A stretch of DNA of 64,000 nucleotides, taken from Alphaproteobacteria bacterium. Lineage in GTDB: Bacteria; Pseudomonadota; Alphaproteobacteria; RF32; CAG-239. How positions within the stretch are numbered: position 1 is the first letter of the stretch; each line of letters opens with the position of its first letter. Made by a program: the position numbers and the translations under genes. The notes below the pieces were generated by a model. It was not told the DNA's origin. It saw nothing but the letters and a program-made list of their open reading frames with translations, and did no database searches. Where the stretch lies: assembly GCA_045602545.1 (NCBI GenBank), contig JAZSBR010000033.1:14645-78644 (forward strand). The letters run 5' to 3'. Positions 1,507 through 30,071 of the stretch are shown here, in pieces.

Positions 1507-1545
1507 AAAAAGCGCCCTGTCCTTTTTCAGCGCGCTTTTTTTTGC
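1507..1545 (+). terminator. intrinsic terminator (aaagcgcc...gcgcttttttttt)
   Basis: Stem agcgc/gcgct followed by a T8 run, directly after the ORF at 1176..1484. Confidence 0.5.
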
Positions 1546-1848
1546 TTTACAAATAAAAGTTTTTTTGTTATTCTGACAATAGAATGATGTAACATCATTT
1601 CAGAAACTTCGGTTTCGGGGCTTTGAACGGCTCTATATACTCAGAGGTACATAGATACAGTGTCCCTCGGATGCTGTTTTTTTGTATCTGAATATCCCCA
1701 CTTTGGGTGGGGAGCCTGCGTCGTATGTACAAGCATTTTAAATGCTAAAGGATGTAGGAGTCATTGCTGAGTATATGATTGTTCAACTCCCCGCCGCCTC
1801 AAAAAAGGTGGCTTTGTGTTTTTAAAAGTTTTTAGAAAGGACAATGAC
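1546..1848 (+). promoter_or_regulatory. Type A conserved structured 5' leader, copy 1 (candidate promoter TTTACA-N17-TATTCT at 1546-1574, then about 250 nt of structured RNA up to the start codon)
   Basis: About 75% identical to 11771..12077 upstream of a paralogous gene; shared blocks agaaacttcggtttcggggc, cagtgtccctc..gatgctgttttttt, tccccRcWttgGKtgggga hairpin, ttttaaaagttttWagaaaggacaatgaYatg; compensatory changes keep hairpins intact (agcatttt-aaatgct vs ggcttttt-aaagct). Confidence 0.55.
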
Positions 1849-2676
1849 ATGAAAAAAAATGTTTTATTAATGAGTATGATAATACTGTTTAATACAATAT
1901 CCGAATCATCGGCAGATGATATAACACCGACTTCCGGAACTTGTAATACCGACGAAACTTGTTTATGGAGCATAGATTCTGCCGGAACTTTAACCATTTC
2001 CGCCAAAGACGGCGCAAATGATGTTATAATGGATGATTATTATTGCTATGCTAATCCCTGTAACCAATCATCATTAATTTCCCGACCTTGGGAAGCAAGC
2101 TTGCAGCAAATTAAAAGTGTTGTTATTGGTGACAATATTACACATATCGGTGATGATGCCTTCCAGAATGCTTCAAACCTAATATCAATTAGCGGAATGA
2201 AAAATATAAAAACAATCGGAGATGAAGGGGTTTTTGCTTACACCGGTTTAACTGAGATTACAATTCCGGATGGTGTAACATACATTGGTTCAGGTGCATT
2301 TGCCTACACTAAAAAATTGAAAAGTGTAACATTACCTGATACTATCAGCGATATTGGAATAGGAAGCAATGGTCAGAAGCTTTTTAAAGGACAAACTACT
2401 CTTGTTGAAATAAATTGCTTAAACACAAGCGGACAATGCGAAAAATTGCGCGGACTTCTTAAGGATATGATAGGGGATAAAACTTTCAATATCATTTCAC
2501 CTACCTCAAATTGCGAGACTTATAATAGCAAAGGATGCACATCTTGTGAAAAAGAATATTCTCTTGCAGATGGTATGTGCTGGGCAGCTTGGGAAAAAAA
2601 GCATTACACACCGGCTGAGGCTAATCAGTGGCTGAAAGATGACAACAACACCATAACGATTACCTTCAAAAAGTAA
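1849..2676 (+). CDS. secreted BspA-type leucine-rich-repeat protein with conserved C-terminal RYTPAEA...TITFKK domain (family member 1)
   Basis: ATG at 1849 with AAAGGA RBS 8 nt upstream (ORF track start 1816 is probably too early); signal peptide MKKNVLLMSMIILFNTISESSA; LRR_5/BspA-like repeats (ITIPDGVTYIGSGAFAY...VTLPDTISDIG); C-terminus CTSCEKEYSLADGMCWAAWEKKHYTPAEANQWLKDDNNTITITFKK shared with 4 paralogs. Confidence 0.7.
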   Translation: MKKNVLLMSMIILFNTISESSADDITPTSGTCNTDETCLWSIDSAGTLTISAKDGANDVIMDDYYCYANPCNQSSLISRPWEASLQQIKSVVIGDNITHIGDDAFQNASNLISISGMKNIKTIGDEGVFAYTGLTEITIPDGVTYIGSGAFAYTKKLKSVTLPDTISDIGIGSNGQKLFKGQTTLVEINCLNTSGQCEKLRGLLKDMIGDKTFNIISPTSNCETYNSKGCTSCEKEYSLADGMCWAAWEKKHYTPAEANQWLKDDNNTITITFKK

Positions 2677-2679
2677 CCC

Positions 2680-3657
2680 TTACAATTTTTCAATCATCTT
2701 AGCGATTTCGGTGGAAGCATTTAGGGCTTTTTGCGGTTTGAAATCAAAAGCCGATTTATCTTCCAAAGCAATCGCACATTTTGCGTCATAAAGCGAATTC
2801 ACAAAGCGCAAATGCTTTTCGCTTAACCAATCCTTACCGCAGAAAACCCACAAAGGCTTTCCCGGACCCGTTGCCTCGCAACACATTGAAACCGAATCAC
2901 CGGTAACCACCAAATTATCGGCACAAGCCAAATATCCGCCGTAAGGATTTTCGCTTTTATCGCCCCACAAAAATGTGTGTTGTGGAATATCTTTTATTTG
3001 CTCCATAATGATTTTTTGGGCTTCTTCGCCCGTGCGCCTTGAGGTTGTAATCAAAATTGAACCGCCGATTTTTGCTTTCAGCTCTTTTAAGGCTTTGCCG
3101 AGAGCAAGTGCATTTTGCGCCGAAAACGGCTTATTTTTGATTGCCCCGCCGACAATAACCGCCGTCAGCGGACGTGGAAGCGATGAAAAAGTTTCGCTCC
3201 ATTTTGCGCGTTCTTTTTCCAAAAATTCAGCCGTTATCCGGTGTGGACAACCGACAATGTAGTGAATATTCTTCCCCTTGGCTTTTTTTCTGTCATGCTC
3301 CGGCACAATCATCAAATCAAAATCATTTTGCCCCGTTTTTCCGGAATACATAAGCTGAATCAATTTTGTTTTCGGCGACATTTTTTTGATATATCTGGCA
3401 ACCGGAACCGTGCGACGACTGATTGATAAAACATAATCGGGAAACGGCGCTTTTATTTGCTCGGCGTTTTTTTTCGTCAGTCCCAAAAGTGTGCGTCCTC
3501 TGATAAAGTTCGGCAATCCGGCAAATTTATTATATTCCAGATTTTTTTCCTCCACCTCAAACAGGTCTTTATTCAAGGCTCCGATAATTCCCATCGCCTG
3601 CCCCACACTGCCGCGACGATCATCCATTAACGACCAAAAAACTTTTTTCATTCGCAC
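2680..3657 (-). CDS. ELM1/DUF1022-family protein (GT-B-like fold, sometimes annotated nucleoside-diphosphate-sugar epimerase); function unknown
   Basis: 325 aa; ITTSRRT and CPHRI motifs recalled from the ELM1 (PF06258) family; assignment from memory only. Confidence 0.35.
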   Translation of the reverse strand: MRMKKVFWSLMDDRRGSVGQAMGIIGALNKDLFEVEEKNLEYNKFAGLPNFIRGRTLLGLTKKNAEQIKAPFPDYVLSISRRTVPVARYIKKMSPKTKLIQLMYSGKTGQNDFDLMIVPEHDRKKAKGKNIHYIVGCPHRITAEFLEKERAKWSETFSSLPRPLTAVIVGGAIKNKPFSAQNALALGKALKELKAKIGGSILITTSRRTGEEAQKIIMEQIKDIPQHTFLWGDKSENPYGGYLACADNLVVTGDSVSMCCEATGPGKPLWVFCGKDWLSEKHLRFVNSLYDAKCAIALEDKSAFDFKPQKALNASTEIAKMIEKL

Positions 3658-3736
3658 TTCTCTTCATTTAATTTTAATTTTCAGTTTTTATATTATTAGC
3701 ACACGGATATTTTTTTTAAAAGAAAAAGGATGAATT

Positions 3737-4198
3737 ATGCGCACAATTTTATTTATAACAGCTTTGCTTTTTGCAACTCAGAGCTTTTCACAAAGCATAT
3801 ATCGCGGTGCCGTCAAAAGTGTTGACCAACCGCAAAACACATATTCTCAAGCAAGAGTGCCTGCAATAGAAAGACCTGAAACCGGCTTCAAAAATTCTGA
3901 ACGTTCGCAAGAAATGAAAGAAGATATCAAAAATATGCGCGGCATCATGGGTTCTTCTCAGGATGCCATAAAAGCCCGCAATTTATTGATGTTGAAAGAA
4001 GTACTTGATTTTAAGATGCAAGACGCAACGCTTGCGCCTGAAATAGAAAAATTAAAGCAAAATCGCGAGTTTAATACCAAATTATATAAAGCATTAAATC
4101 AGCTTGATAACAAAAAAAATCGCAACAGCAAAAATCAGGAAGTTATAAATATCTTGAATGACGCCGGAAACCGCATTTATAATTCTTTGGCAAATTAA
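3737..4198 (+). CDS. secreted hypothetical protein
   Basis: 153 aa; signal peptide MRTILFITALLFATQSFSQS; AAAGGA RBS. Confidence 0.5.
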   Translation: MRTILFITALLFATQSFSQSIYRGAVKSVDQPQNTYSQARVPAIERPETGFKNSERSQEMKEDIKNMRGIMGSSQDAIKARNLLMLKEVLDFKMQDATLAPEIEKLKQNREFNTKLYKALNQLDNKKNRNSKNQEVINILNDAGNRIYNSLAN

Positions 4199-6158: not shown

Positions 6159-7427
6159 TTATTTCTTAAACGTTATCGTCACCTCATTTGTGTTGTCATT
6201 TTTCAACACTTCCGCCGCCTCAGCCGGGGTATAGCGAATGCGGTTACACCATCCGCCCATATCTTTGCAAGATGAGCAACACTTGCGTTTGCTAACATCC
6301 GGCTCACGCACACAGCCAGCTCCGTTCCAAAAGTAATTACCGGAGGTACATTGCTCATAATTTGCCACAACCACATTACCGGCCAATTCCAATGTTTCTC
6401 TTGAATAATCTATGCCGTATTGCTCATATTCGTTAAATAGATTTTTAACGCGAGCGCATGACAGTTCATCTCCCAAACAAATAATCTGCATATTTTGAAT
6501 TGTCTTTTTATTAGTTCCCAAACTTCCAAGCTCTACTTCTTCTAGTGTATCAGGAACTATAATTGAGGGAGAAAAACCACCGGAACCAGCCCTAAAGGCA
6601 AACTCCCCGATTTTTTTCAGCGAATCGGATAGTTTTACGGTTGATATTGCGTTATTCCAAGCAAAGGCTCCTTCATTTATATCAGTTACCGTGTCACTCA
6701 TTTCAACAGCAGTTAACTGGTCACCTGAACGGCAAAAAGCGTATTTTCCGATTGTACTTAAGCCCTCAATTTTCACGGATTTAATTTTTTCTTTATATGC
6801 TTTCCATGGGGCAGTTGTGTATTGTGCATTTGTTTCACTATCTTTGGAGTAAGAATAATTATACATATTTCCACTTCCGGAAACGGATAATTTCCCGCTT
6901 ACTGTATCAAAGCTCCAATCGCAATTGTCACCGCACTTTTCGCAAGCAGTAATGCCATCTTCGCGCAATCCGTTTATGCAACTCACTTTTGTGCCTTCCG
7001 CCCTCGATTCGGCGGTGGTGATGAGCGTGAAAACAAGGGCAAACACCGGAATCGTCATTACGAGGAGCATTCTTTGAATGCGACGTGGTAATCTCATAAA
7101 ACAAGTGACGCTTGTAAATAAGGATTCTTCATTTGCATGAGTACCTTGCTCAGGGAGATAACCACGTCGGACTGAAGTCCTCCTCGTTATGACGTGCCTT
7201 AACAATTTTTCCATCACTTTGGCGGAGTTGCACAGCAACGATGTCAAAGTGCCAACCGCCGAAAGCGGTTTATTCGCACTGCCCTCACTCAACCGCTGAG
7301 TCTGTTTTATATCCGTACATATTGTCGCCGTCCCGCCGACGAGTGTTTCATACGAAACACTCTTGGAAAATTTATAGCAATCCTCGCCTGACTTTTGTGT
7401 TTGCTCTCTATTAAAAATATCATTCAT
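6159..7427 (-). CDS. secreted BspA-type LRR protein with conserved C-terminal domain (family member 2); N-terminal region carries a conserved pre-signal peptide and an in-frame palindromic insert
   Basis: ATG at 7427 with AAGGAAAGG RBS; alternative internal start MTIPVFALVFTLITTAESRA at 7058 (signal peptide shared with the 15165..16463 paralog); LRR_5 repeats; C-terminus CSSCKDMGGWCNRIRYTPAEAAEVLKNDNTNEVTITFKK. Confidence 0.65.
   Translation of the reverse strand: MNDIFNREQTQKSGEDCYKFSKSVSYETLVGGTATICTDIKQTQRLSEGSANKPLSAVGTLTSLLCNSAKVMEKLLRHVITRRTSVRRGYLPEQGTHANEESLFTSVTCFMRLPRRIQRMLLVMTIPVFALVFTLITTAESRAEGTKVSCINGLREDGITACEKCGDNCDWSFDTVSGKLSVSGSGNMYNYSYSKDSETNAQYTTAPWKAYKEKIKSVKIEGLSTIGKYAFCRSGDQLTAVEMSDTVTDINEGAFAWNNAISTVKLSDSLKKIGEFAFRAGSGGFSPSIIVPDTLEEVELGSLGTNKKTIQNMQIICLGDELSCARVKNLFNEYEQYGIDYSRETLELAGNVVVANYEQCTSGNYFWNGAGCVREPDVSKRKCCSSCKDMGGWCNRIRYTPAEAAEVLKNDNTNEVTITFKK
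7053..7194. repeat. palindromic (hairpin) insertion element inside the 5' coding region of the family gene; RPE- or MITE-like
   Basis: Terminal inverted repeats cgtcattacgaggag (7053-7067) and ctcctcgttatgacg (7180-7194); nested inverted repeat gcgacgtggtaatctc / gagataaccacgtcgg; the insert keeps the reading frame open. Confidence 0.5.
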
Positions 7428-7439
7428 TTTAACAGCCCT

Positions 7440-7680
7440 TTCCTTAAAAAAATTAAGCCACTGAGCATAAAAGAAAAACCTCCGAACGGAGGTCGGAAGT
7501 TGACAACTATGATACGATTAATAGTGTAGTATATTTGATAGTACTGTCTTATTCTACTACCTTCCGACCATAAAGTCAGAAGTACACATATCGTATCGAG
7601 GTTGTCACACCTCCGAGCCTTTTATGCTCGTTTAAAAGGTTAACAAAAAAATTTTGCTTTGTAAAGAAAAAAATCTTGCC
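7440..7680 (-). promoter_or_regulatory. Type B conserved structured 5' leader, copy 1 (promoter region plus about 200-nt structured RNA), upstream of the minus-strand family gene
   Basis: Shares with 16470..16745 and 29790..30000 the blocks tctttacaaagcaaaattttttt (promoter), gagcataaaaggctcRgaggt ... cttttatgctc terminal stem, and ggtcggaagg/cttccgacc; several internal stems. Confidence 0.55.
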
Positions 7681-11747: not shown

Positions 11748-11770
11748 AAACTATAAAATGTACTTTTTCT

Positions 11771-12077
11771 TTGACATCTGCTATTTTTTTTGCTAGTGTA
11801 ATATAAGAATGGCGGATACGCCGTTTTAAGAAACTTCGGTTTCGGGGCTGTAGCAGGCTCTTTGTCGATAGAGGTGCATTATTCAGTGTCCCTCTTGGAT
11901 GCTGTTTTTTTGTACCCAAAATCCCCGCATTGGTTGGGGAGATTATAGCGTATGTACAGGCTTTTTTAAAGCTAAAGGCTATAATAGTCATTACTATCGA
12001 CATGATTTGCTAACTCCCCGATCGCCTGCAATACCGGCGGTCTTTGAGTTTTAAAAGTTTTAAGAAAGGACAATGAT
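11771..12077 (+). promoter_or_regulatory. Type A conserved structured 5' leader, copy 2 (candidate promoter TTGACA-N17-TAGTGT at 11771-11799)
   Basis: Paralogous to 1546..1848; see copy 1. Confidence 0.55.
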
Positions 12078-12959
12078 ATGAAAAAGAAATTTAATAATGA
12101 ACACACGCCTAAATCAAGCGAGAATTGCGATAAATATTCCAAGAGTGTTTCGGTGGAAAAATTGTTGCAAATATCGCCTGTATTAAGGTTGGTAAAAGTT
12201 CTTGGTTTAGCGGCGGTTTTATCTTTAAATATAGTGAGCGAATCGCTGGCAGATTGCGAAAGACCAACCAATGGAATATGCAAAACACTTGGAGAAAAAG
12301 GCACTTGCGGCGAGGGTTGTTCTTATACTTATGATTCAGCTACGCAAACTGTTTACATAACCGCTACCGGTGATAATGCAAAAATTGCAGGAGCGGCTTT
12401 TCATAATTATTATTATGAAAATAATAGTATGCCGGCTCAAACTTTTATTATTAATGGTGCTATAAAAATCGGCAGTAATGCATTTAATTCACCCCAAAGA
12501 AAACTTATATCGGGAGCCGGAGGAGCATTGATTTTAACCGGAGTCAATCATGACGCATTCGGAAATGACACAACTTTATCAGGCACCATAATTATTCCGG
12601 AAGGAACAGAATTCGCTCCTCTTGCCTTTTACGGCGTAACTTTGGCAGATAATGCTAAAATATATTGCGGTGTAGAAGATTGCAAACAAAAAATGATTGA
12701 TTCTTGCAATGCTTGGGGACGTAATGAAAACGGAAATGTAACAAGTTGTCTTAATGCCGTGAACAATATGGGCAATAAATTACTTCCATATCCTGAAAAT
12801 TGCCTAAAGGTGGGAGCAATGGGTTGCACAAAGTGCAAAAATTCAAATTTCAAATTAAATGACGGCGAATGTGACAGACTGCGCTACACCCCTGCCGAGG
12901 CGGCTGAGGTTTTGCATAACGACAACACAAATTCGGTGACGATTACTTTCAAAAAATAA
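12078..12959 (+). CDS. secreted BspA-type LRR protein with conserved C-terminal domain (family member 3) and a conserved N-terminal pre-signal extension
   Basis: ATG 12078 with AAAGGA RBS; N-terminus MKKKFNNEHTPKSSENCDKYSKSVSVEKL matches the N-terminus of 6159..7427; signal-like VKVLGLAAVLSLNIVSESLA follows; C-terminus CTKCKNSNFKLNDGECDRLRYTPAEAAEVLHNDNTNSVTITFKK. Confidence 0.7.
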   Translation: MKKKFNNEHTPKSSENCDKYSKSVSVEKLLQISPVLRLVKVLGLAAVLSLNIVSESLADCERPTNGICKTLGEKGTCGEGCSYTYDSATQTVYITATGDNAKIAGAAFHNYYYENNSMPAQTFIINGAIKIGSNAFNSPQRKLISGAGGALILTGVNHDAFGNDTTLSGTIIIPEGTEFAPLAFYGVTLADNAKIYCGVEDCKQKMIDSCNAWGRNENGNVTSCLNAVNNMGNKLLPYPENCLKVGAMGCTKCKNSNFKLNDGECDRLRYTPAEAAEVLHNDNTNSVTITFKK

Positions 12960-14249: not shown

Positions 14250-15035
14250 ATGCGTTTTTTATATTGCGGAGATGTGGTTGCGCGCCCGGGACGTGAAGTT
14301 GTTTATAAAAATATGGCGCGCCTAAAAGAAGAATATAAACTTGATGTGATGATAGTTAATGTTGAAAATGCCGCACACGGTTTCGGCATAACAAGCGGAA
14401 TTGCGCGCGAATTTTTGGAAAAAGGCGCTGATGTTCTGGTTACCGGTAATCATTTTTTGAGCCAGAAAGATATTGCAAAATTTTTAGATGAGTGCAAGGT
14501 AATTATCAGGCCGGCGAATATTCCGCTCGGCAATGTCGGACGCGGATTTTGTGAATTTGAACTTGCCGACGGGCGCAAAATTGTGGTGATACAGGTTTTG
14601 GGGCGCTTATATATGGAAGCCGTTGATTGTCCGGTGCAAGCGGTTGATAATATTTTGAAAAATTATCATATGGGGAAGAATTGCTCGGCAATTTTGGTTG
14701 ATATTCATGCCGAAGCAACTTCGGAAAAACTTTCGCTCGGTTATTATCTTGACGGCAAAGTGTCTTGCGTTGCCGGAACTCATACGCATGTTCCGACAGC
14801 CGATGCCCGAATTTTGCCGCAAAAAACCGCTTATATAACCGATGTCGGCATGTGCGGAGATTATAATTCGATTTTGGGTTTTGAAACAGAAGCGCCGATA
14901 AATCGCCTGCGCCGTCATTACAGTGATGACCGTTTGACGCCGGCAAAGGGCAATGGTACGCTTTATGGAATTATTGTTGAAACGGATGATTCCACCGGCT
15001 TGGCAAAATCAATCACGCAAATAAAGTGCGACTGA
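14250..15035 (+). CDS. ymdB: YmdB-family metallophosphoesterase (2',3'-cyclic-nucleotide phosphodiesterase-like)
   Basis: MRFLYCGDVVARPGREVV...VNVENAAHGFGIT closely parallels the B. subtilis YmdB N-terminus (MRILFIGDVVGSPGR...INGENAAHGKG). Confidence 0.7.
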   Translation: MRFLYCGDVVARPGREVVYKNMARLKEEYKLDVMIVNVENAAHGFGITSGIAREFLEKGADVLVTGNHFLSQKDIAKFLDECKVIIRPANIPLGNVGRGFCEFELADGRKIVVIQVLGRLYMEAVDCPVQAVDNILKNYHMGKNCSAILVDIHAEATSEKLSLGYYLDGKVSCVAGTHTHVPTADARILPQKTAYITDVGMCGDYNSILGFETEAPINRLRRHYSDDRLTPAKGNGTLYGIIVETDDSTGLAKSITQIKCD

Positions 15036-15087
15036 TTATATTTGTCCTTTAAGGCAAAATCGATTGCAATAAAATATAGGTTAATTA

Positions 15088-15122
15088 CCCCAATGTTTCA
15101 CGTGAAACATTGGGGTAAGTGC
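15088..15122. terminator. perfect palindromic hairpin (ccccaatgtttcacgtgaaacattgggg), bidirectional terminator between convergent genes
   Basis: 12-bp perfect stem with 4-nt loop between ymdB (+) and the family gene (-). Confidence 0.5.
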
Positions 15123-15164: not shown

Positions 15165-16463
15165 TTATTTTTTGAAGGTTATCGTCACCTCGTTTGTGTT
15201 GTCATCTTTCAGCACCTCCGCCGCCTCGGCAGGAGTATAAATTTTGCGCAAGCACCAACCGTCATCTTCAAGCTTAAAACTGGCACTTTTGCATTTTGTG
15301 CATTTAAGATTAGCTTCCAGTTTTTCACAACCGTCAGGATAAACACTGAATTTTTTGGAAAGACTATTAAGACTCTGAAAGCAGGCTTCATTATTACTAC
15401 TTTCTTCGCAACCTTTCTTTGCCATATCATAACATGCTTTGGCACCGGAGGCACAATAGATTTTGCCGGTTATATTACTTACATTTACAGCAAAGTATTT
15501 AATACTATCAACAGAATCGGGAATAATAATATTTCCATCTATATTTGAACTTCCCAAAACCCAACCAGGCATCGTTTGCATATTTTCCGATATTATCACA
15601 TCTCCTTTGATATTTGCCCTTTCTAAAGAAGTAACCAATGGATTATTTAAATAAACATCACCATTTAAGGTTACACGATTGTTGCCATAAGTAGAATAAC
15701 TTCCAATATTATTAAATACAAATTTCCCGTTTGCGTTCAAAATTTGCGCTCCGGAATTGGCAAACGCATAATTTCCGATATTTTCAAAATCGTTATCTAA
15801 GACAATGTTTTGCAAGGGAATGACCTTATTTTGGGCGTCTTTAACCTGATTATCAGCGTAATAATATGGTGAAAATGCGCCATCGCGAATCGAGGCAGAC
15901 TTGGATATATCAGTTTTATATATATGCAAAACCTGTTGTCCGTTTTCATTAATAACTCTGTATGAACAATTGTCTCCGCAGGAATTGTTACCATTTGCAT
16001 CGGATAGTTTTTCAATGCAAGTGACTGTATAACCATGTCCTTCCTTGCAAACGGGTGTTTCTTCATCTGCTCGCGATTCGCCGGTGGTGATGAGGGTGAA
16101 AATGAGGGCAAGCGCCGGAATCGTCATTCTGAGTTGAGTTTTAGCGAAACGAAGAATCCACGGATTTAATATGAAGCGGCGTTTGTGTGCCTTACGGCAC
16201 GACGCCGGAGCGGAGATTCCTTGAGCGCCTGACGCACCGCGCAGGCGCAGGAATGACAGTACCTTTTCTGTCATCTTGAGCCTCGAGACGTTAGGCGAGC
16301 GGGCGTAAAGATCTCTTTTTGCAGAAACGCGGTATGCTTTTTGCTCCATATTTTTAACACAATCTCTACACTTGCAACATGAGATCTTGACGGGGATTTC
16401 GCTTGCGCTCAACCCCTCAAGATGACGGCAGATTATTTTTTCATTATTCTTAATTTCAAACAT
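15165..16463 (-). CDS. secreted BspA-type LRR protein with conserved C-terminal domain (family member 4); 5' region carries an in-frame GC-rich palindromic insert
   Basis: ATG 16463 with AAAGGA RBS; alternative internal start MTIPALALIFTLITTGESRA at 16127; LRR_5 repeats; C-terminus CTKCKSASFKLEDDGWCLRKIYTPAEAAEVLKDDNTNEVTITFKK. Confidence 0.65.
   Translation of the reverse strand: MFEIKNNEKIICRHLEGLSASEIPVKISCCKCRDCVKNMEQKAYRVSAKRDLYARSPNVSRLKMTEKVLSFLRLRGASGAQGISAPASCRKAHKRRFILNPWILRFAKTQLRMTIPALALIFTLITTGESRADEETPVCKEGHGYTVTCIEKLSDANGNNSCGDNCSYRVINENGQQVLHIYKTDISKSASIRDGAFSPYYYADNQVKDAQNKVIPLQNIVLDNDFENIGNYAFANSGAQILNANGKFVFNNIGSYSTYGNNRVTLNGDVYLNNPLVTSLERANIKGDVIISENMQTMPGWVLGSSNIDGNIIIPDSVDSIKYFAVNVSNITGKIYCASGAKACYDMAKKGCEESSNNEACFQSLNSLSKKFSVYPDGCEKLEANLKCTKCKSASFKLEDDGWCLRKIYTPAEAAEVLKDDNTNEVTITFKK
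16121..16437. repeat. GC-rich palindromic insertion element (RPE- or MITE-like) within the 5' coding region of the family gene
   Basis: Local GC far above flanks (gccttacggcacgacgccggagcggag...gcgcaggcgcagg); imperfect terminal inverted repeats cgtcattctgag (16122-) and ctcaagatgacgg (-16437); internal hairpins such as tgacagtaccttttctgtca; same relative position and TIR core (cgtcatt) as the 7053..7194 element. Confidence 0.45.
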
Positions 16464-16469
16464 TTGAAC

Positions 16470-16745
16470 ATTCCTTTTCTTAAAAAATTATACCACTTAA
16501 GCATAAAAGAAAATCGCCCAAAAAGGCGACTGGAAGCAGAAAACTATACAGATTAGATAGTGTGATTTATTCGCAAACCGAAGGGTTTCTTATTTCATCA
16601 CCTTCCAGCCATACGAATATGACTGAAAATAAAACTATCCCTACAAAAGGACAAATCTGTCTGAGGTTTTCTGACCTCCGAGCCTTTTATGCTCAATTAA
16701 AATGCTAGCAAAAAAATTTTGCTTTGTAAAGAGAAAAGTTAGAAA
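16470..16745 (-). promoter_or_regulatory. Type B conserved structured 5' leader, copy 2, with sigma70-like promoter TTTACA-N17-TAGCAT (complement 16702..16730)
   Basis: Paralogous to 7440..7680 and 29790..30000; terminal stem agcataaaag...cttttatgct. Confidence 0.55.
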
Positions 16746-29789: not shown

Positions 29790-30071
29790 TATTATTTTTT
29801 CTTTACAACACAAAATTTTTCTGCTAGCATTTCAGGTGAGCATAAAAGGCTCAGAGGTCTGATAGCCTCTAACACATTAGTCCTTTTCAGAGGATGGTTT
29901 TAATTTCAGTCATACGTTAAATATGACTGGAAGGTGGTGAAATAAGAAGGGGTAACCTTTACGAATAAATCACACTATCTAATGTGTTATAGTTATCAGC
30001 TTCCAGTCGCCTTTTTTGAGGGCGATTTTTCTTTTATGCGCGGTTTAATCTTTTTAAGAAAGGAAAAAATT
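29790..30071 (+). promoter_or_regulatory. Type B conserved structured 5' leader, copy 3, with sigma70-like promoter TTTACA-N17-TAGCAT (29802..29830)
   Basis: Reverse complement of the 16470..16745 element in the same orientation relative to its downstream gene; gagcataaaaggctcagaggt...ctggaaggtggtgaaataagaa...cttccagtcgcctttttt. Confidence 0.55.

What the first reader, a model, noticed from the sequence alone, without database searches (positions are those of the whole stretch)
7053..7194. In-frame palindromic insertion (RPE-like) between conserved N-terminal peptide and signal peptide
A 142-bp imperfect palindrome with terminal inverted repeats cgtcattacgaggag/ctcctcgttatgacg lies inside the open reading frame of gene 6159..7427. 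It sits between the conserved N-terminal peptide (MNDIFNREQTQKSGEDCYKFSKSVSYETL) and the internal Met of the signal peptide (MTIPVFALVF). The 123 codons upstream of that Met contain no stop codon, as with Rickettsia palindromic elements that insert in frame. In the mRNA the TIRs would pair and sequester the internal AUG-ACG, so it could also act as a translational switch.
Basis: seen in the sequence. Interest (0 to 1): 0.65.

Follow-up and report, generated by a model that had tools for sequence, protein, structure and literature searches.

The report
In-frame palindromic repeat in surface-protein gene
A 142-base palindromic repeat of a known selfish-DNA class (the class that includes some Rickettsia palindromic elements and the hairpin repeats flanking Ssn nuclease genes) sits, without breaking the reading frame, in the stretch ahead of the export signal of a variable surface protein of an uncultured gut alphaproteobacterium.

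Summary
Window 7053-7194 is a 142-nt imperfect palindrome (TIR 14/15; RNA fold -63.8 kcal/mol, z -7.7). It lies inside ORF 6159-7427 (-), and the 123 codons before the internal Met-Thr have no stop, while the other five frames have 5-9.

It is an inverted pair of CGTC-tagged hairpin units. This is the repeat class of Neisseria dRS3/NTS and Rickettsia RPE-4/-6. In other phyla, arms of the same family bracket small GIY-YIG (Ssn-like) nuclease genes. The element is the gene-less short form.

It is not a simple insertion, and it is not dispersed in the window. It travels with the adjacent signal-peptide codons as a ~205-nt block. That block occurs at 92-98% identity in other genes of one BspA-type LRR surface-protein family, always just before 'MTIP...'. 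A positional orthologue from a ~95%-identical genome has a different 79-nt signal block instead.

Two other CGTC palindromes sit in frame at the same place in paralogue 15165-16463.

Best reading: a tolerated selfish repeat translated within a long pre-signal extension that I infer is cleaved off, and spread by recombination among paralogues. A translational switch is untested.

Verdict: new member of a known kind, in an unusual context.

The parts
7053..7194 (-). Palindromic element 'C': an inverted, tail-to-tail pair of CGTC-tagged hairpin units around a spacer. In the gene's frame it encodes VITRRTSVRRGYLPEQGTHANEESLFTSVTCFMRLPRRIQRMLLVMT.
   Evidence: copies at 93-98% identity in L001, L115, L116, L117, L118
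7154..7194 (-). Left arm unit in mRNA sense: CGTC tag, basal stem ATAAC/GTTAT, internal loop, apical hairpin GGAC-TTCA-GTCC, tail CTC.
   Evidence: ssDNA fold. It has the same dot-bracket shape as the arm that flanks a GIY-YIG gene in L023. Invariant in 5 copies except the first base, C/T.
7053..7096 (+). Right arm unit, read on the + strand: CGTC tag, basal stem ATTAC/GTAAT, apical hairpin GCATTC-TTT-GAATGC, tail CTC. Its reverse complement ends in ATGACG, the Met-Thr of the signal peptide.
   Evidence: Among copies, variation is confined to the apical loop and one tag base.
7097..7153 (-). Central spacer of the element, with a decayed inner hairpin. It carries most of the between-copy variation (10 of 57 columns, against 5 of 85 in the arms).
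   Evidence: Fisher p = 0.048
6999..7058 (-). Signal-peptide segment MTIPVFALVFTLITTAESRA. Its ATG ACG is the last 6 nt of the palindrome.
   Evidence: It is homologous in all copies, with many synonymous differences (17 of 57 columns vary).
6997..7201 (-). ~205-nt block (7 nt + palindrome + signal segment) shared at 92% identity with an otherwise unrelated gene (P0102, L001 10272-10476) and with L116 and L117. In the positional orthologue L112, the window stretch 7002-7200 is replaced by 79 nt encoding QMSPIFKLVKIISLAVLSISVVSESQ.
7200..7340 (-). Module B: a second in-frame stretch, absent from paralogue 12078 and P0007 but present in orthologue L112. It has weak terminal inverted repeats CACTCGTCGGCGG / CTCCGCCAAAGTG.
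   Evidence: read from sequence
7341..7427 (-). Conserved N-terminal peptide (module A, MNDIFNREQTQKSGEDCYKFSKSVSYETL), preceded by a Shine-Dalgarno sequence AAGGAAAGG.
   Evidence: In paralogue 12078 and in P0007 it runs straight into a signal peptide that has no internal Met, so there it must be translated.
6159..7427 (-). Host ORF, 422 aa: BspA-type LRR_5 surface protein with the family's C-terminal tail ...CNRIRYTPAEAAEVLKNDNTNEVTITFKK.
16122..16258 (-). Sister element 'D' in paralogue 15165-16463. It has arms TGTCATTCC... and ...CTCAGAATGACG, lies in frame, and again ends in the ATGACG of MTIPALALIF.
16269..16427 (-). Sister element 'E' in the same paralogue (arms CGTCATCTTGAG... / ...CTCAAGATGACA), in frame.
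   Evidence: The pre-signal stretch of ~111 codons has 0 stops, against 4-10 in the other frames.

Best explanation
The 142-nt palindrome is a non-autonomous repeat made of two inverted CGTC-tagged hairpin units. This is the repeat class whose long form carries a small single-domain GIY-YIG (Ssn-type) ssDNA nuclease gene between the same two arms. The window copy is the gene-less short form.

It lies in the 5' coding part of a secreted BspA-type LRR protein, between the real start codon (7427, with a Shine-Dalgarno sequence and a conserved leader) and the hydrophobic core of the signal peptide. It is read through by ribosomes as a 47-residue arginine-rich filler.

That position tolerates insertions. 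Everything upstream of the signal-peptidase site (…AESRA|EG) would be removed from the mature protein. Selection therefore only requires an open frame and a working hydrophobic core, which explains why only stop-free, in-frame copies are seen.

The element does not hop freely here. It is carried with the adjacent signal-peptide codons as a ~205-nt block that has been exchanged among paralogous surface-protein genes by homologous recombination or gene conversion. The sharp 5' breakpoint falls exactly at the CGTC tag.

Shown:
- the palindrome and its architecture;
- the class relationship of the arms;
- the open frame;
- block sharing and the orthologue polymorphism.

Inferred:
- translation through the element;
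- cleavage of the extension;
- the mode of spread;
- any role of an Ssn nuclease in this genome.
For: Architecture and structure:
- Searches show the architecture and predicted fold.
- A pattern built from the arms (TCATWACGAGGAG-N8-15-CGACGTGG) hit more than 109 stretches in very diverse phyla. All share the layout tag-stem-hairpin-CGACGTGGYAATC ... GATTGCCACG-hairpin-CTCGCAATGAC.

Link to GIY-YIG genes:
- In L021, L023 and L046 the two arms bracket a 95-96-aa GIY-YIG ORF (PF01541, E 1e-16 to 1e-18). In L009 and L103 an arm abuts such a gene.
- Published background: CGTC-tagged REPs include RPE-4/-6 and dRS3 (PMC3733652). Ssn GIY-YIG ssDNA nucleases are flanked by CGTCAT-hairpin repeats (PMC11893778).

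Open frame:
- Gene 1 has 0 stops in the used frame against 5-9 elsewhere, and 11 of 20,000 shuffles are open. Gene 3 has 0 against 4-10, and 48 of 20,000.
- L080, found by DNA pattern and not through a protein database, has three such units in frame between an SD-ATG and 'AMTIQTLTLALIL'.
- The start peptide must be translated in paralogues that lack any internal Met.
- L117 has ATA in place of the internal ATG.

Block behaviour:
- The 5' boundary is sharp at the tag, with three different upstream contexts. The 3' flank is always the MTIP signal segment.
- Variable columns number 15 of 142 in the palindrome, 17 of 57 in the signal segment and 37 of 45 upstream.
- Orthologue L112 is 94.9% identical over 1,644 nt of flanking genes and has the same promoter, yet it has a 79-nt block where the window has 199 nt.
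- Substitutions inside the palindrome are mostly non-synonymous, while those in the signal segment are mostly synonymous (read). The palindrome-encoded peptide therefore appears not to be under protein-level constraint.
Against: - No expression or proteomic data exist. A 123-residue extension ahead of a signal peptide is unusually long, and export competence is assumed.
- Several in-frame Mets (MRLPRRIQRM..., RMLLV, MT) could serve as internal starts.
- No ssn-like gene is in the window or in the alphaproteobacterial loci fetched, so the class link rests on other phyla.
- The arms do not match the published SRM search pattern (0 hits).
- The single arms are weak hairpins as ssDNA (-4 to -6.5 kcal/mol; one has z of about 0).
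- Most in-frame copies were found through protein databases, which can only show open copies.
- High conservation of the palindrome relative to its flanks could also mean that it is functional and not merely tolerated.
Confidence: 0.6

Rival explanations
1. Domesticated recombination site. The CGTC palindromes at the 5' ends of these surface-protein genes are kept because they promote cassette exchange among paralogues. For example, nicking of the extruded ssDNA hairpins by an Ssn-type nuclease could trigger it. This would diversify signal and N-terminal modules and passenger domains, giving antigenic variation.
For: - All six CGTC hairpin units in the 64-kb window lie in the pre-signal regions of two of the four family genes and nowhere else.
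- The N-termini across the family are mosaics of a few modules (A, A', B, C, D, E) in different orders.
- Between two ~95%-identical genomes, the orthologous gene differs by a replaced signal block and a completely different LRR middle, while its ends are conserved.
- The arms are more conserved than the spacer.
- In Neisseria, NTS/dRS3 repeats cluster around variable surface and virulence genes and modulate recombination of incoming DNA (PMC11893778).
Against: - Mosaicism is expected for any repeated sequence shared by paralogues and does not need a dedicated mechanism.
- No nuclease gene was found nearby.
- No within-population variants were examined.
- The hypervariable middle of the gene is not flanked by such repeats on its 3' side in the window.
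Confidence: 0.2
2. 5'-UTR structure or translational switch. The mature protein is made from an internal start (ATG ACG at 7058, or ATG AGA at 7097-7095, which gives MRLPRRIQRMLLVMTIP...). The palindrome hairpin hides that start until it is melted by temperature, a factor, or ribosomes translating the upstream ORF.
For: - The predicted hairpin is very stable and buries both candidate AUGs.
- MRLPRRIQRM-LLVMTIPVFALVF... has the shape of a textbook signal peptide (read).
- In L111 and L118 an IS110 insertion cuts the gene off from everything upstream, and gene callers start the protein at ATGACG.
Against: - There is no Shine-Dalgarno sequence before either internal ATG and no promoter-like site near the palindrome.
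- The upstream frame is kept open far beyond chance in two genes of the window and in L080. A pure UTR would not require this.
- L117 has ATA for the ATG.
- Paralogues without the element need the upstream start.
Confidence: 0.12
3. The extension is a functional protein domain, and the palindromy is incidental or secondary.
For: The peptide is 86-94% identical across about 10 protein clusters.
Against: - The between-copy changes are mainly non-synonymous, whereas the neighbouring signal segment changes mainly synonymously.
- Conservation follows the DNA arms, not the codons.
- The same arm sequences occur in intergenic DNA of many phyla.
- No Pfam match falls in residues 1-123.
Confidence: 0.03

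Closest known systems
Rickettsia palindromic elements (RPE), especially RPE-4 and RPE-6
   Same: - Imperfect palindrome of ~100-150 bp.
- Lies in frame inside a protein-coding gene and adds a peptide.
- One end carries the CGTC tag (PMC3733652).
- The host is an alphaproteobacterium.
- An arm matches a Rickettsia-endosymbiont locus (L050) at 88% over 42 nt.
   Different: - RPEs are scattered through many unrelated housekeeping genes of one genome (PMC10969869).
- Here the element is single-copy in 64 kb and confined to the pre-signal N-terminus of one surface-protein family.
- It is always fused to the same signal segment.
- I did not align it directly to RPE consensus sequences.
CGTC-tagged REP super-family (Di Nocera, De Gregorio & Rocco 2013), including Neisseria dRS3
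   Same: - Unpaired 5' CGTC/TGTC tag.
- The stem starts with A-T, T-A pairs.
- Short unpaired tail.
- Units are paired in inverted orientation.
- Found mainly in Alphaproteobacteria and sometimes inside genes.
   Different: - The published units have one 8-9-bp stem and a 4-5-nt loop.
- The units here are 41-48 nt, with a 5-7-bp basal stem, an internal loop and a second apical hairpin.
- The dimer is tail-to-tail (tags outward), which that paper calls rare.
Ssn-related motifs (SRM/NTS) flanking ssn GIY-YIG ssDNA-nuclease genes (Chenal et al. 2025, Nat Commun 16:2388)
   Same: - CGTCAT followed by a hairpin and ...ATC.
- The same arm family brackets ~95-aa single-domain GIY-YIG genes in L021, L023 and L046.
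- The repeats sit next to surface and variable genes.
   Different: - The arms do not match the published degenerate SRM pattern (0 hits in the window).
- No ssn gene is in the window.
- In-frame intragenic arrays ahead of a signal peptide are not described there.
REPINs (REP doublets forming hairpins; Bertels & Rainey 2011)
   Same: - Two inverted repeat units around a spacer form one long hairpin.
- Non-autonomous.
- The arms are more conserved than the spacer.
   Different: REPINs carry GTAG-type REPs and are tied to RAYT tyrosine transposases. Here the tag is CGTC and the associated gene in the long form is a GIY-YIG nuclease.
Extended signal peptides (e.g. the ESPR of autotransporters)
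   Same: A conserved N-terminal extension precedes a classical signal peptide in surface proteins.
   Different: The ESPR adds ~25 residues of conserved protein sequence. Here the extension reaches 111-123 residues and is built from DNA repeats whose peptide sequence appears unconstrained.

Membership tests
Rickettsia palindromic elements (RPE) | Imperfect palindrome of about 100-150 bp able to form a long hairpin | tested here: met
   142 nt, TIR 14/15, 69% self-complementary, z -7.7
Rickettsia palindromic elements (RPE) | Inserted in frame in protein-coding genes without stops | tested here: met
   0 stops in 123 codons against 5-9 in the other frames; 11 of 20,000 shuffles are open; all homologous copies are in frame
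Rickettsia palindromic elements (RPE) | Many copies dispersed in unrelated genes and spacers of the same genome | tested here: not met
   - One copy in the 64-kb window.
- Every in-frame copy in 1.84e9 representative proteins is at the N-terminus of one protein family.
- The rest of the genome could not be scanned.
Rickettsia palindromic elements (RPE) | Sequence similarity to an RPE family consensus | not tested
   Indirect evidence only: the shared CGTC tag (PMC3733652) and an 88% match over 42 nt to a Rickettsia-endosymbiont locus, L050
CGTC-tagged REP super-family | Unpaired terminal CGTC (or TGTC) tag at one end of each unit | tested here: met
   Both arms of C, and the arms of D and E, start with CGTC or TGTC, unpaired in the ssDNA folds
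CGTC-tagged REP super-family | Stem begins with complementary A and T in the first and second positions; short unpaired tail | tested here: met
   ATAAC/GTTAT, ATTAC/GTAAT, ATTCC/GGAAT and ATCTTG/CAAGAT, with tail CTC (CCA in many relatives)
CGTC-tagged REP super-family | Single stem of 8-9 bp with a loop of 4-5 nt | tested here: not met
   Units of 41-48 nt with a 5-7-bp basal stem, an internal loop and an apical hairpin
Ssn-related motif (SRM/NTS) | Match to the published search pattern HGTCWYN(0-2)YYVSBRHN(0-5)WNVSBRGN(0-2)RNCYNB | tested here: not met
   0 matches in the window on both strands; 0.13 expected by chance
Ssn-related motif (SRM/NTS) | Repeats flank a single-domain ~95-aa GIY-YIG (ssn) gene on both sides | tested here: inconclusive
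   - Met for the same arm family in other phyla: L021, L023 and L046 on both sides, L009 and L103 on one side.
- No such gene in the window or in the alphaproteobacterial loci.
- Assignment of those genes to cd10448 could not be made with these libraries.
Ssn-related motif (SRM/NTS) | Bound and cut as single-stranded DNA by the cognate Ssn nuclease | not testable with these tools
   Needs biochemistry
REPIN | Two inverted REP units separated by a spacer, folding into one hairpin | tested here: met
REPIN | GTAG-type REP sequence and an associated RAYT transposase | tested here: not met
   The tag is CGTC. The gene found between such arms elsewhere is a GIY-YIG nuclease, not a RAYT.
MITE | Terminal inverted repeats plus a target-site duplication | tested here: not met
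   TIRs are present, but the flanks ...AAGGCA | element | ATTCCGG... show no direct repeat in any of the five copies

The most novel reading that the evidence does not exclude
In this lineage of gut Alphaproteobacteria, CGTC/Ssn-type palindromes have been recruited as in-frame junction modules of a cassette system. They sit between a shared riboswitch-like leader and start peptide on one side and the signal peptide on the other. Their ATGACG tag doubles as Met-Thr of the signal peptide. ssDNA-hairpin nicking at the tags drives exchange of 5' modules and passenger domains among dozens of BspA-type surface-protein genes. This would be a previously undescribed antigenic-variation mechanism built on a selfish nuclease-repeat pair.
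Probability: 0.15. Interest if true: 0.75.

Novelty: new member of a known kind. Interest (0 to 1): 0.5.

Why it matters
- It extends 'protein-coding palindromes', so far a Rickettsia curiosity, to uncultured gut Alphaproteobacteria.
- It ties them concretely to the CGTC-REP / Ssn-nuclease repeat class, through a long-armed variant that the published search pattern misses.
- It points to a natural safe harbour for such insertions: the pre-signal extension of secreted proteins, which I infer is cleaved off. If so, this would explain how selfish DNA can live inside genes at little cost.
- If the repeats also steer recombination among surface-protein paralogues, they would be part of an antigenic-variation system.
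- For annotation, it warns that these 110-125-residue N-terminal 'domains' are translated repeats and not protein domains.

Tried and rejected
- Rfam: no family at the gathering threshold in the window or in 18 related loci. Only chance-level hits appeared at E up to 10 around the element.
- Exact 22-mer of the left arm in JGI metagenome contigs: 0 hits, so no frame-unbiased census of this exact element was possible.
- Word-indexed protein search with the 49-aa peptide returned nothing, although known carriers exist. This is a limit of the tool for short queries. The exhaustive phmmer search replaced it.
- Exact-protein look-ups for the window's own proteins and for the NCBI relatives P0001, P0002 and P0008 found no contigs. 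The source MAG and its accession therefore stay unidentified.
- Full-text search for the arm sequence found only primer coincidences.
- The published SRM pattern gave 0 hits.
- 'Simple insertion with an empty site' was rejected. The orthologue shows a block replacement, not a clean excision site.
- MITE with target-site duplication was rejected.
- P0003 and P0005, which start at MTI..., looked like evidence for an internal start. They are in fact cut off by an IS110-family insertion.
- Compensatory-change analysis of the long hairpin was not pursued. The five copies differ at only 15 positions, and the central stem changes are not compensatory.
Full report

Yes.
- The terminal inverted repeats are 15 nt and 14/15 complementary.
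- The whole 142 nt aligns with its own reverse complement at 69% identity.
- The mRNA-sense strand of 7040-7210 folds at -63.8 kcal/mol, against -36.1 +/- 3.6 for dinucleotide shuffles (z -7.7; 0 of 200 shuffles fold as well).

The element lies inside ORF 6159-7427 on the minus strand (422 aa).
- From the ATG at 7427 to the codon before the ATG at 7058 there are 123 codons without a stop.
- The other two sense frames have 8 and 9 stops, and each antisense frame has 5. Only 11 of 20,000 shuffles keep the used frame open.
- The palindrome is open in only one of its six frames.

Two corrections apply.
- A further ~141-nt in-frame stretch (7200-7340, 'module B') separates the conserved N-terminal peptide from the palindrome.
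- The window holds no second copy of this element.

**2. Anatomy**

The element is an outward-tagged inverted pair of hairpin units around a 57-nt spacer.

| Unit | Coordinates | Sequence |
|---|---|---|
| Left (mRNA sense) | 7194-7154 | CGTC-ATAAC-GAGGAG-[GGAC TTCA GTCC]-GACGTG-GTTAT-CTC |
| Right (+ strand) | 7053-7096 | CGTC-ATTAC-GAGGAG-[GCATTC TTT GAATGC]-GACGTG-GTAAT-CTC |

As single-stranded DNA, each unit gives an unpaired CGTC tag, a basal stem starting A-T/T-A, an internal loop, an apical hairpin and an unpaired tail. The dot-bracket shape is identical to that of an arm flanking a GIY-YIG gene in L023. The single units are weak, at -4.1 and -6.5 kcal/mol.

The reverse complement of the right tag, ATGACG, is the Met-Thr of MTIPVFALVFTLITTAESRA, the hydrophobic signal segment.

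**3. The host gene and its family**

- The protein (P0001, from an NCBI MAG contig of 109,109 bp) is a BspA-type LRR_5 protein.
- It belongs to a large family in uncultured, mostly gut or rumen, 'Alphaproteobacteria bacterium' MAGs. Members share a C-terminal tail ...CNRIRYTPAEAAxVLxDDNTNEVTITFKK around very different passenger domains.
- Four members lie in the window: ~1849-2676(+), 6159-7427(-), 12078-12959(+) and 15165-16463(-).
- In paralogue 12078 and in P0007, the start peptide (MKKKFNNEHTPKSSENCDKYSKSVSVEKL...) runs straight into a signal peptide that has no internal Met. The upstream ATG is therefore a real start there.
- Paralogue 15165-16463 has an open pre-signal stretch of ~111 codons before MTIPALALIF. 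The used frame has 0 stops against 4-10 in the other frames, and 48 of 20,000 shuffles are open.
- That stretch contains two other palindromes of the same build, both in frame. E is at 16269-16427. D is at 16122-16258 and again ends in ATGACG.
- All six CGTC hairpin units of the window are in these two genes.

**4. Copies elsewhere and the unit of exchange**

An exhaustive phmmer search of the 49-aa palindrome peptide against 1.84 billion representative proteins gave 11 hits. Ten have E < 1e-10 and are 86-94% identical. All are near the N-terminus of proteins of this family. About 25 of the 120 best family members carry the peptide, and 57 of 124 have their first strongly hydrophobic segment after residue 45.

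DNA copies were recovered from L001, L115, L116, L117 and L118, at 93-98% identity. The five-copy alignment, which omits L118, shows the following.

| Segment | Variable columns |
|---|---|
| Palindrome, all | 15 of 142 |
| Arms only | 5 of 85 (three of the five lie in an apical loop) |
| Spacer only | 10 of 57 (arms vs spacer, Fisher p = 0.048) |
| Signal segment downstream | 17 of 57, largely synonymous |
| Upstream flank | 37 of 45 |

- Conservation starts exactly at the (C/T)GTC tag.
- Three unrelated upstream contexts occur: module B, a half of element D, or a short linker.
- Downstream, homology always continues into the MTIP signal segment.
- Changes inside the palindrome are mostly non-synonymous (for example E->K, T->A, CF->WL, Q->L, M->I).
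- The block shared with the otherwise unrelated gene P0102 is window 6997-7201 (205 nt, 92% identity).

**5. The positional orthologue**

L112 (a JGI metagenome contig) has the same neighbours (DUF1349, DnaJ) at 94.9% identity over 1,644 nt. Its promoter is identical, and it has the same leader, module A and module B. It lacks the palindrome.
- Window 7002-7200 (199 nt: AAGGCA, palindrome, IPVFALVFTLITTAESR) corresponds to 79 nt in L112 encoding QMSPIFKLVKIISLAVLSISVVSESQ.
- Identity resumes at GCGGAAGGCACAAAAGTGAG.
- The length difference is 120 nt, so the frame is kept.
- The LRR middle of the gene is also unalignable between the two.

The locus is therefore a recombinational mosaic. The palindrome arrived, or left, as part of a block, not by a clean cut-and-paste.

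**6. What class of repeat is it?**

These come from Bacteroidota, Clostridia, Gastranaerophilales, Rickettsiales, Holosporaceae, CPR and others. The hits share one layout: tag-stem-hairpin-CGACGTGGYAATC ... variable ... GATTGCCACG-hairpin-CTCGCAATGAC.

- In L021, L023 and L046 the variable middle is a 95-96-aa ORF with a GIY-YIG domain (PF01541, E about 1e-16 to 1e-18). In L009 and L103 an arm abuts such a gene. Seven such genes occur in ~0.8 Mb of these loci, and none in the window.
- The short palindromes are therefore gene-less versions of a nuclease-carrying unit.
- This matches published work. Di Nocera et al. 2013 defined CGTC-tagged REPs, including Neisseria dRS3 and R. conorii RPE-4/-6, and found no dedicated transposase (PMC3733652).
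- Chenal et al. 2025 showed that single-domain GIY-YIG 'Ssn' proteins are site-specific ssDNA nucleases. Their genes are flanked by CGTCAT-hairpin repeats (NTS/SRM), which cluster around surface and virulence genes in Neisseria (PMC11893778).
- The units here are a long-armed variant. They fail the published SRM pattern (0 hits) and exceed the 8-9-bp stem of the 2013 families.
- In the broad family, most arms are intergenic. Only 18 of 122 lie in open spans of 150 codons or more, and several of those are chance matches.
- In alphaproteobacterial MAG RUG13901 the arms are intergenic or at gene 3' ends.
- In Rhodospirillaceae RUG410 (L080), which was found by DNA pattern, three units sit in frame between an SD-ATG and ...AMTIQTLTLALIL... 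of a secreted repeat protein.

**7. How it most likely works**

*Shown:*
- a palindromic CGTC-unit dimer;
- an open frame maintained beyond chance in two window genes and in L080;
- a start peptide that is demonstrably translated in paralogues;
- block sharing and an orthologue polymorphism.

*Inferred:*
- Ribosomes start at 7427 and read through modules B and C.
- The arginine-rich end of C (…MRLPRRIQRMLLV) serves as the positively charged n-region.
- The hydrophobic core and AESRA|EG direct export and cleavage, so the repeat-encoded residues never reach the mature protein.

This makes the pre-signal stretch a permissive site in which only frame-preserving, stop-free copies survive. The same filter argument is used for RPEs (PMC10969869). 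The element's high identity among genes whose mature parts are 35-60% identical points to recent spread by gene conversion among paralogues, to constraint on the arms, or to both.

*Rivals:*
- A domesticated recombination site: probability 0.2.
- A 5'-UTR structure or translational switch with an internal start: 0.12. This is weakened by the open frames, the lack of a Shine-Dalgarno sequence or promoter, and the ATA variant in L117.
- A functional protein domain: 0.03.

**8. Novelty and verdict**

The element is a new member of a known kind, namely CGTC-REP / SRM-type palindromes, with RPE-like in-frame residence. I did not find the following described:
- the long-armed unit;
- confinement to the pre-signal extension of one surface-protein family;
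- the fusion of the tag with the Met-Thr of the signal peptide;
- the block-wise exchange.

Interest is moderate, at 0.5.

Noticed in passing
window 7428-7640 (-), 16464-16705 (-), 29827-30071 (+); L112 84-328; L115 419-662: - A conserved ~190-nt structured 5' leader lies upstream of two surface-protein genes and a type IV pilin-like gene.
- The closing stem GAGCAUAAAAGG/UCUUUUAUGCUC is invariant.
- RNAalifold predicts 71 pairs, and 18 show compensatory double changes among only 5 sequences.
- A terminator-like hairpin plus U-run (7501-7477) overlaps the 3' strand of the closing stem and is followed by an SD and ATG.
- A promoter-like TTTACA-17-TAACCT sits just upstream and is 100% conserved in L112.
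- There is no Rfam match.
- It looks like an undescribed cis-regulatory RNA or riboswitch candidate.
   Followed up: partly
window ~1539-1873 (+) and ~11761-12077 (+); L001 9680-9942; L114 ~3560-3830; L080 upstream of the array: A second conserved leader type (…GGGGAGATTrTrGyGTATGTaCAGGC…AAAGGyyAyAATAGTCATT…) lies upstream of other members of the same surface-protein family. In some database entries (for example P0002) it has been translated spuriously as an N-terminal extension.
   Followed up: no
L118 312-1463 and L111 1-65: - An IS110-family insertion sequence (310-aa DEDD_Tnp_IS110/Transposase_20 ORF) is inserted exactly in the terminal tag of the palindrome: CTCCTCGTAAT | IS | GATGACGATTCCGG.
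- It cuts the surface-protein gene off from its leader and start.
- The same IS end precedes ATGACG in L111.
- This suggests the IS targets this repeat, as other IS110 elements target REPs.
- The IS is not present in the window.
   Followed up: partly
window 6338-6852 versus L112 781-1337: Between two genomes that are ~95% identical in flanking genes and in the 3' end of the gene, the LRR middle of the orthologous surface-protein gene is unalignable. The passenger region behaves as a hypervariable cassette.
   Followed up: no
window 7200-7340 (-): - Module B is a ~141-nt in-frame stretch absent from paralogue 12078 and P0007, but present in many family members including orthologue L112.
- It has weak terminal inverted repeats and internal hairpins (for example 7215-7251).
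- Differences from L112 are mostly non-synonymous, with one 3-nt indel.
- It is probably an older repeat insertion.
   Followed up: partly
protein P0124 (110 aa): A diverged copy of the palindrome peptide has an E-type repeat peptide (SAVILSPE…VVDDGAKT…) nested in its centre. One repeat appears to have inserted into the spacer of another.
   Followed up: no
L001 9456-9560: A tRNA gene (minus strand) lies next to a short duplication of its 3' end (…CCCCATAACTGAGCTATATCCCCATAA…). This looks like an integration scar, just upstream of the leader of the P0102 gene.
   Followed up: no
window 15085-15118: A perfect 34-nt palindrome (TTACCCCAATGTTTCAC/GTGAAACATTGGGGTAA, no spacer) lies between the convergent genes 14250-15035 (+) and 15165-16463 (-).
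   Followed up: no
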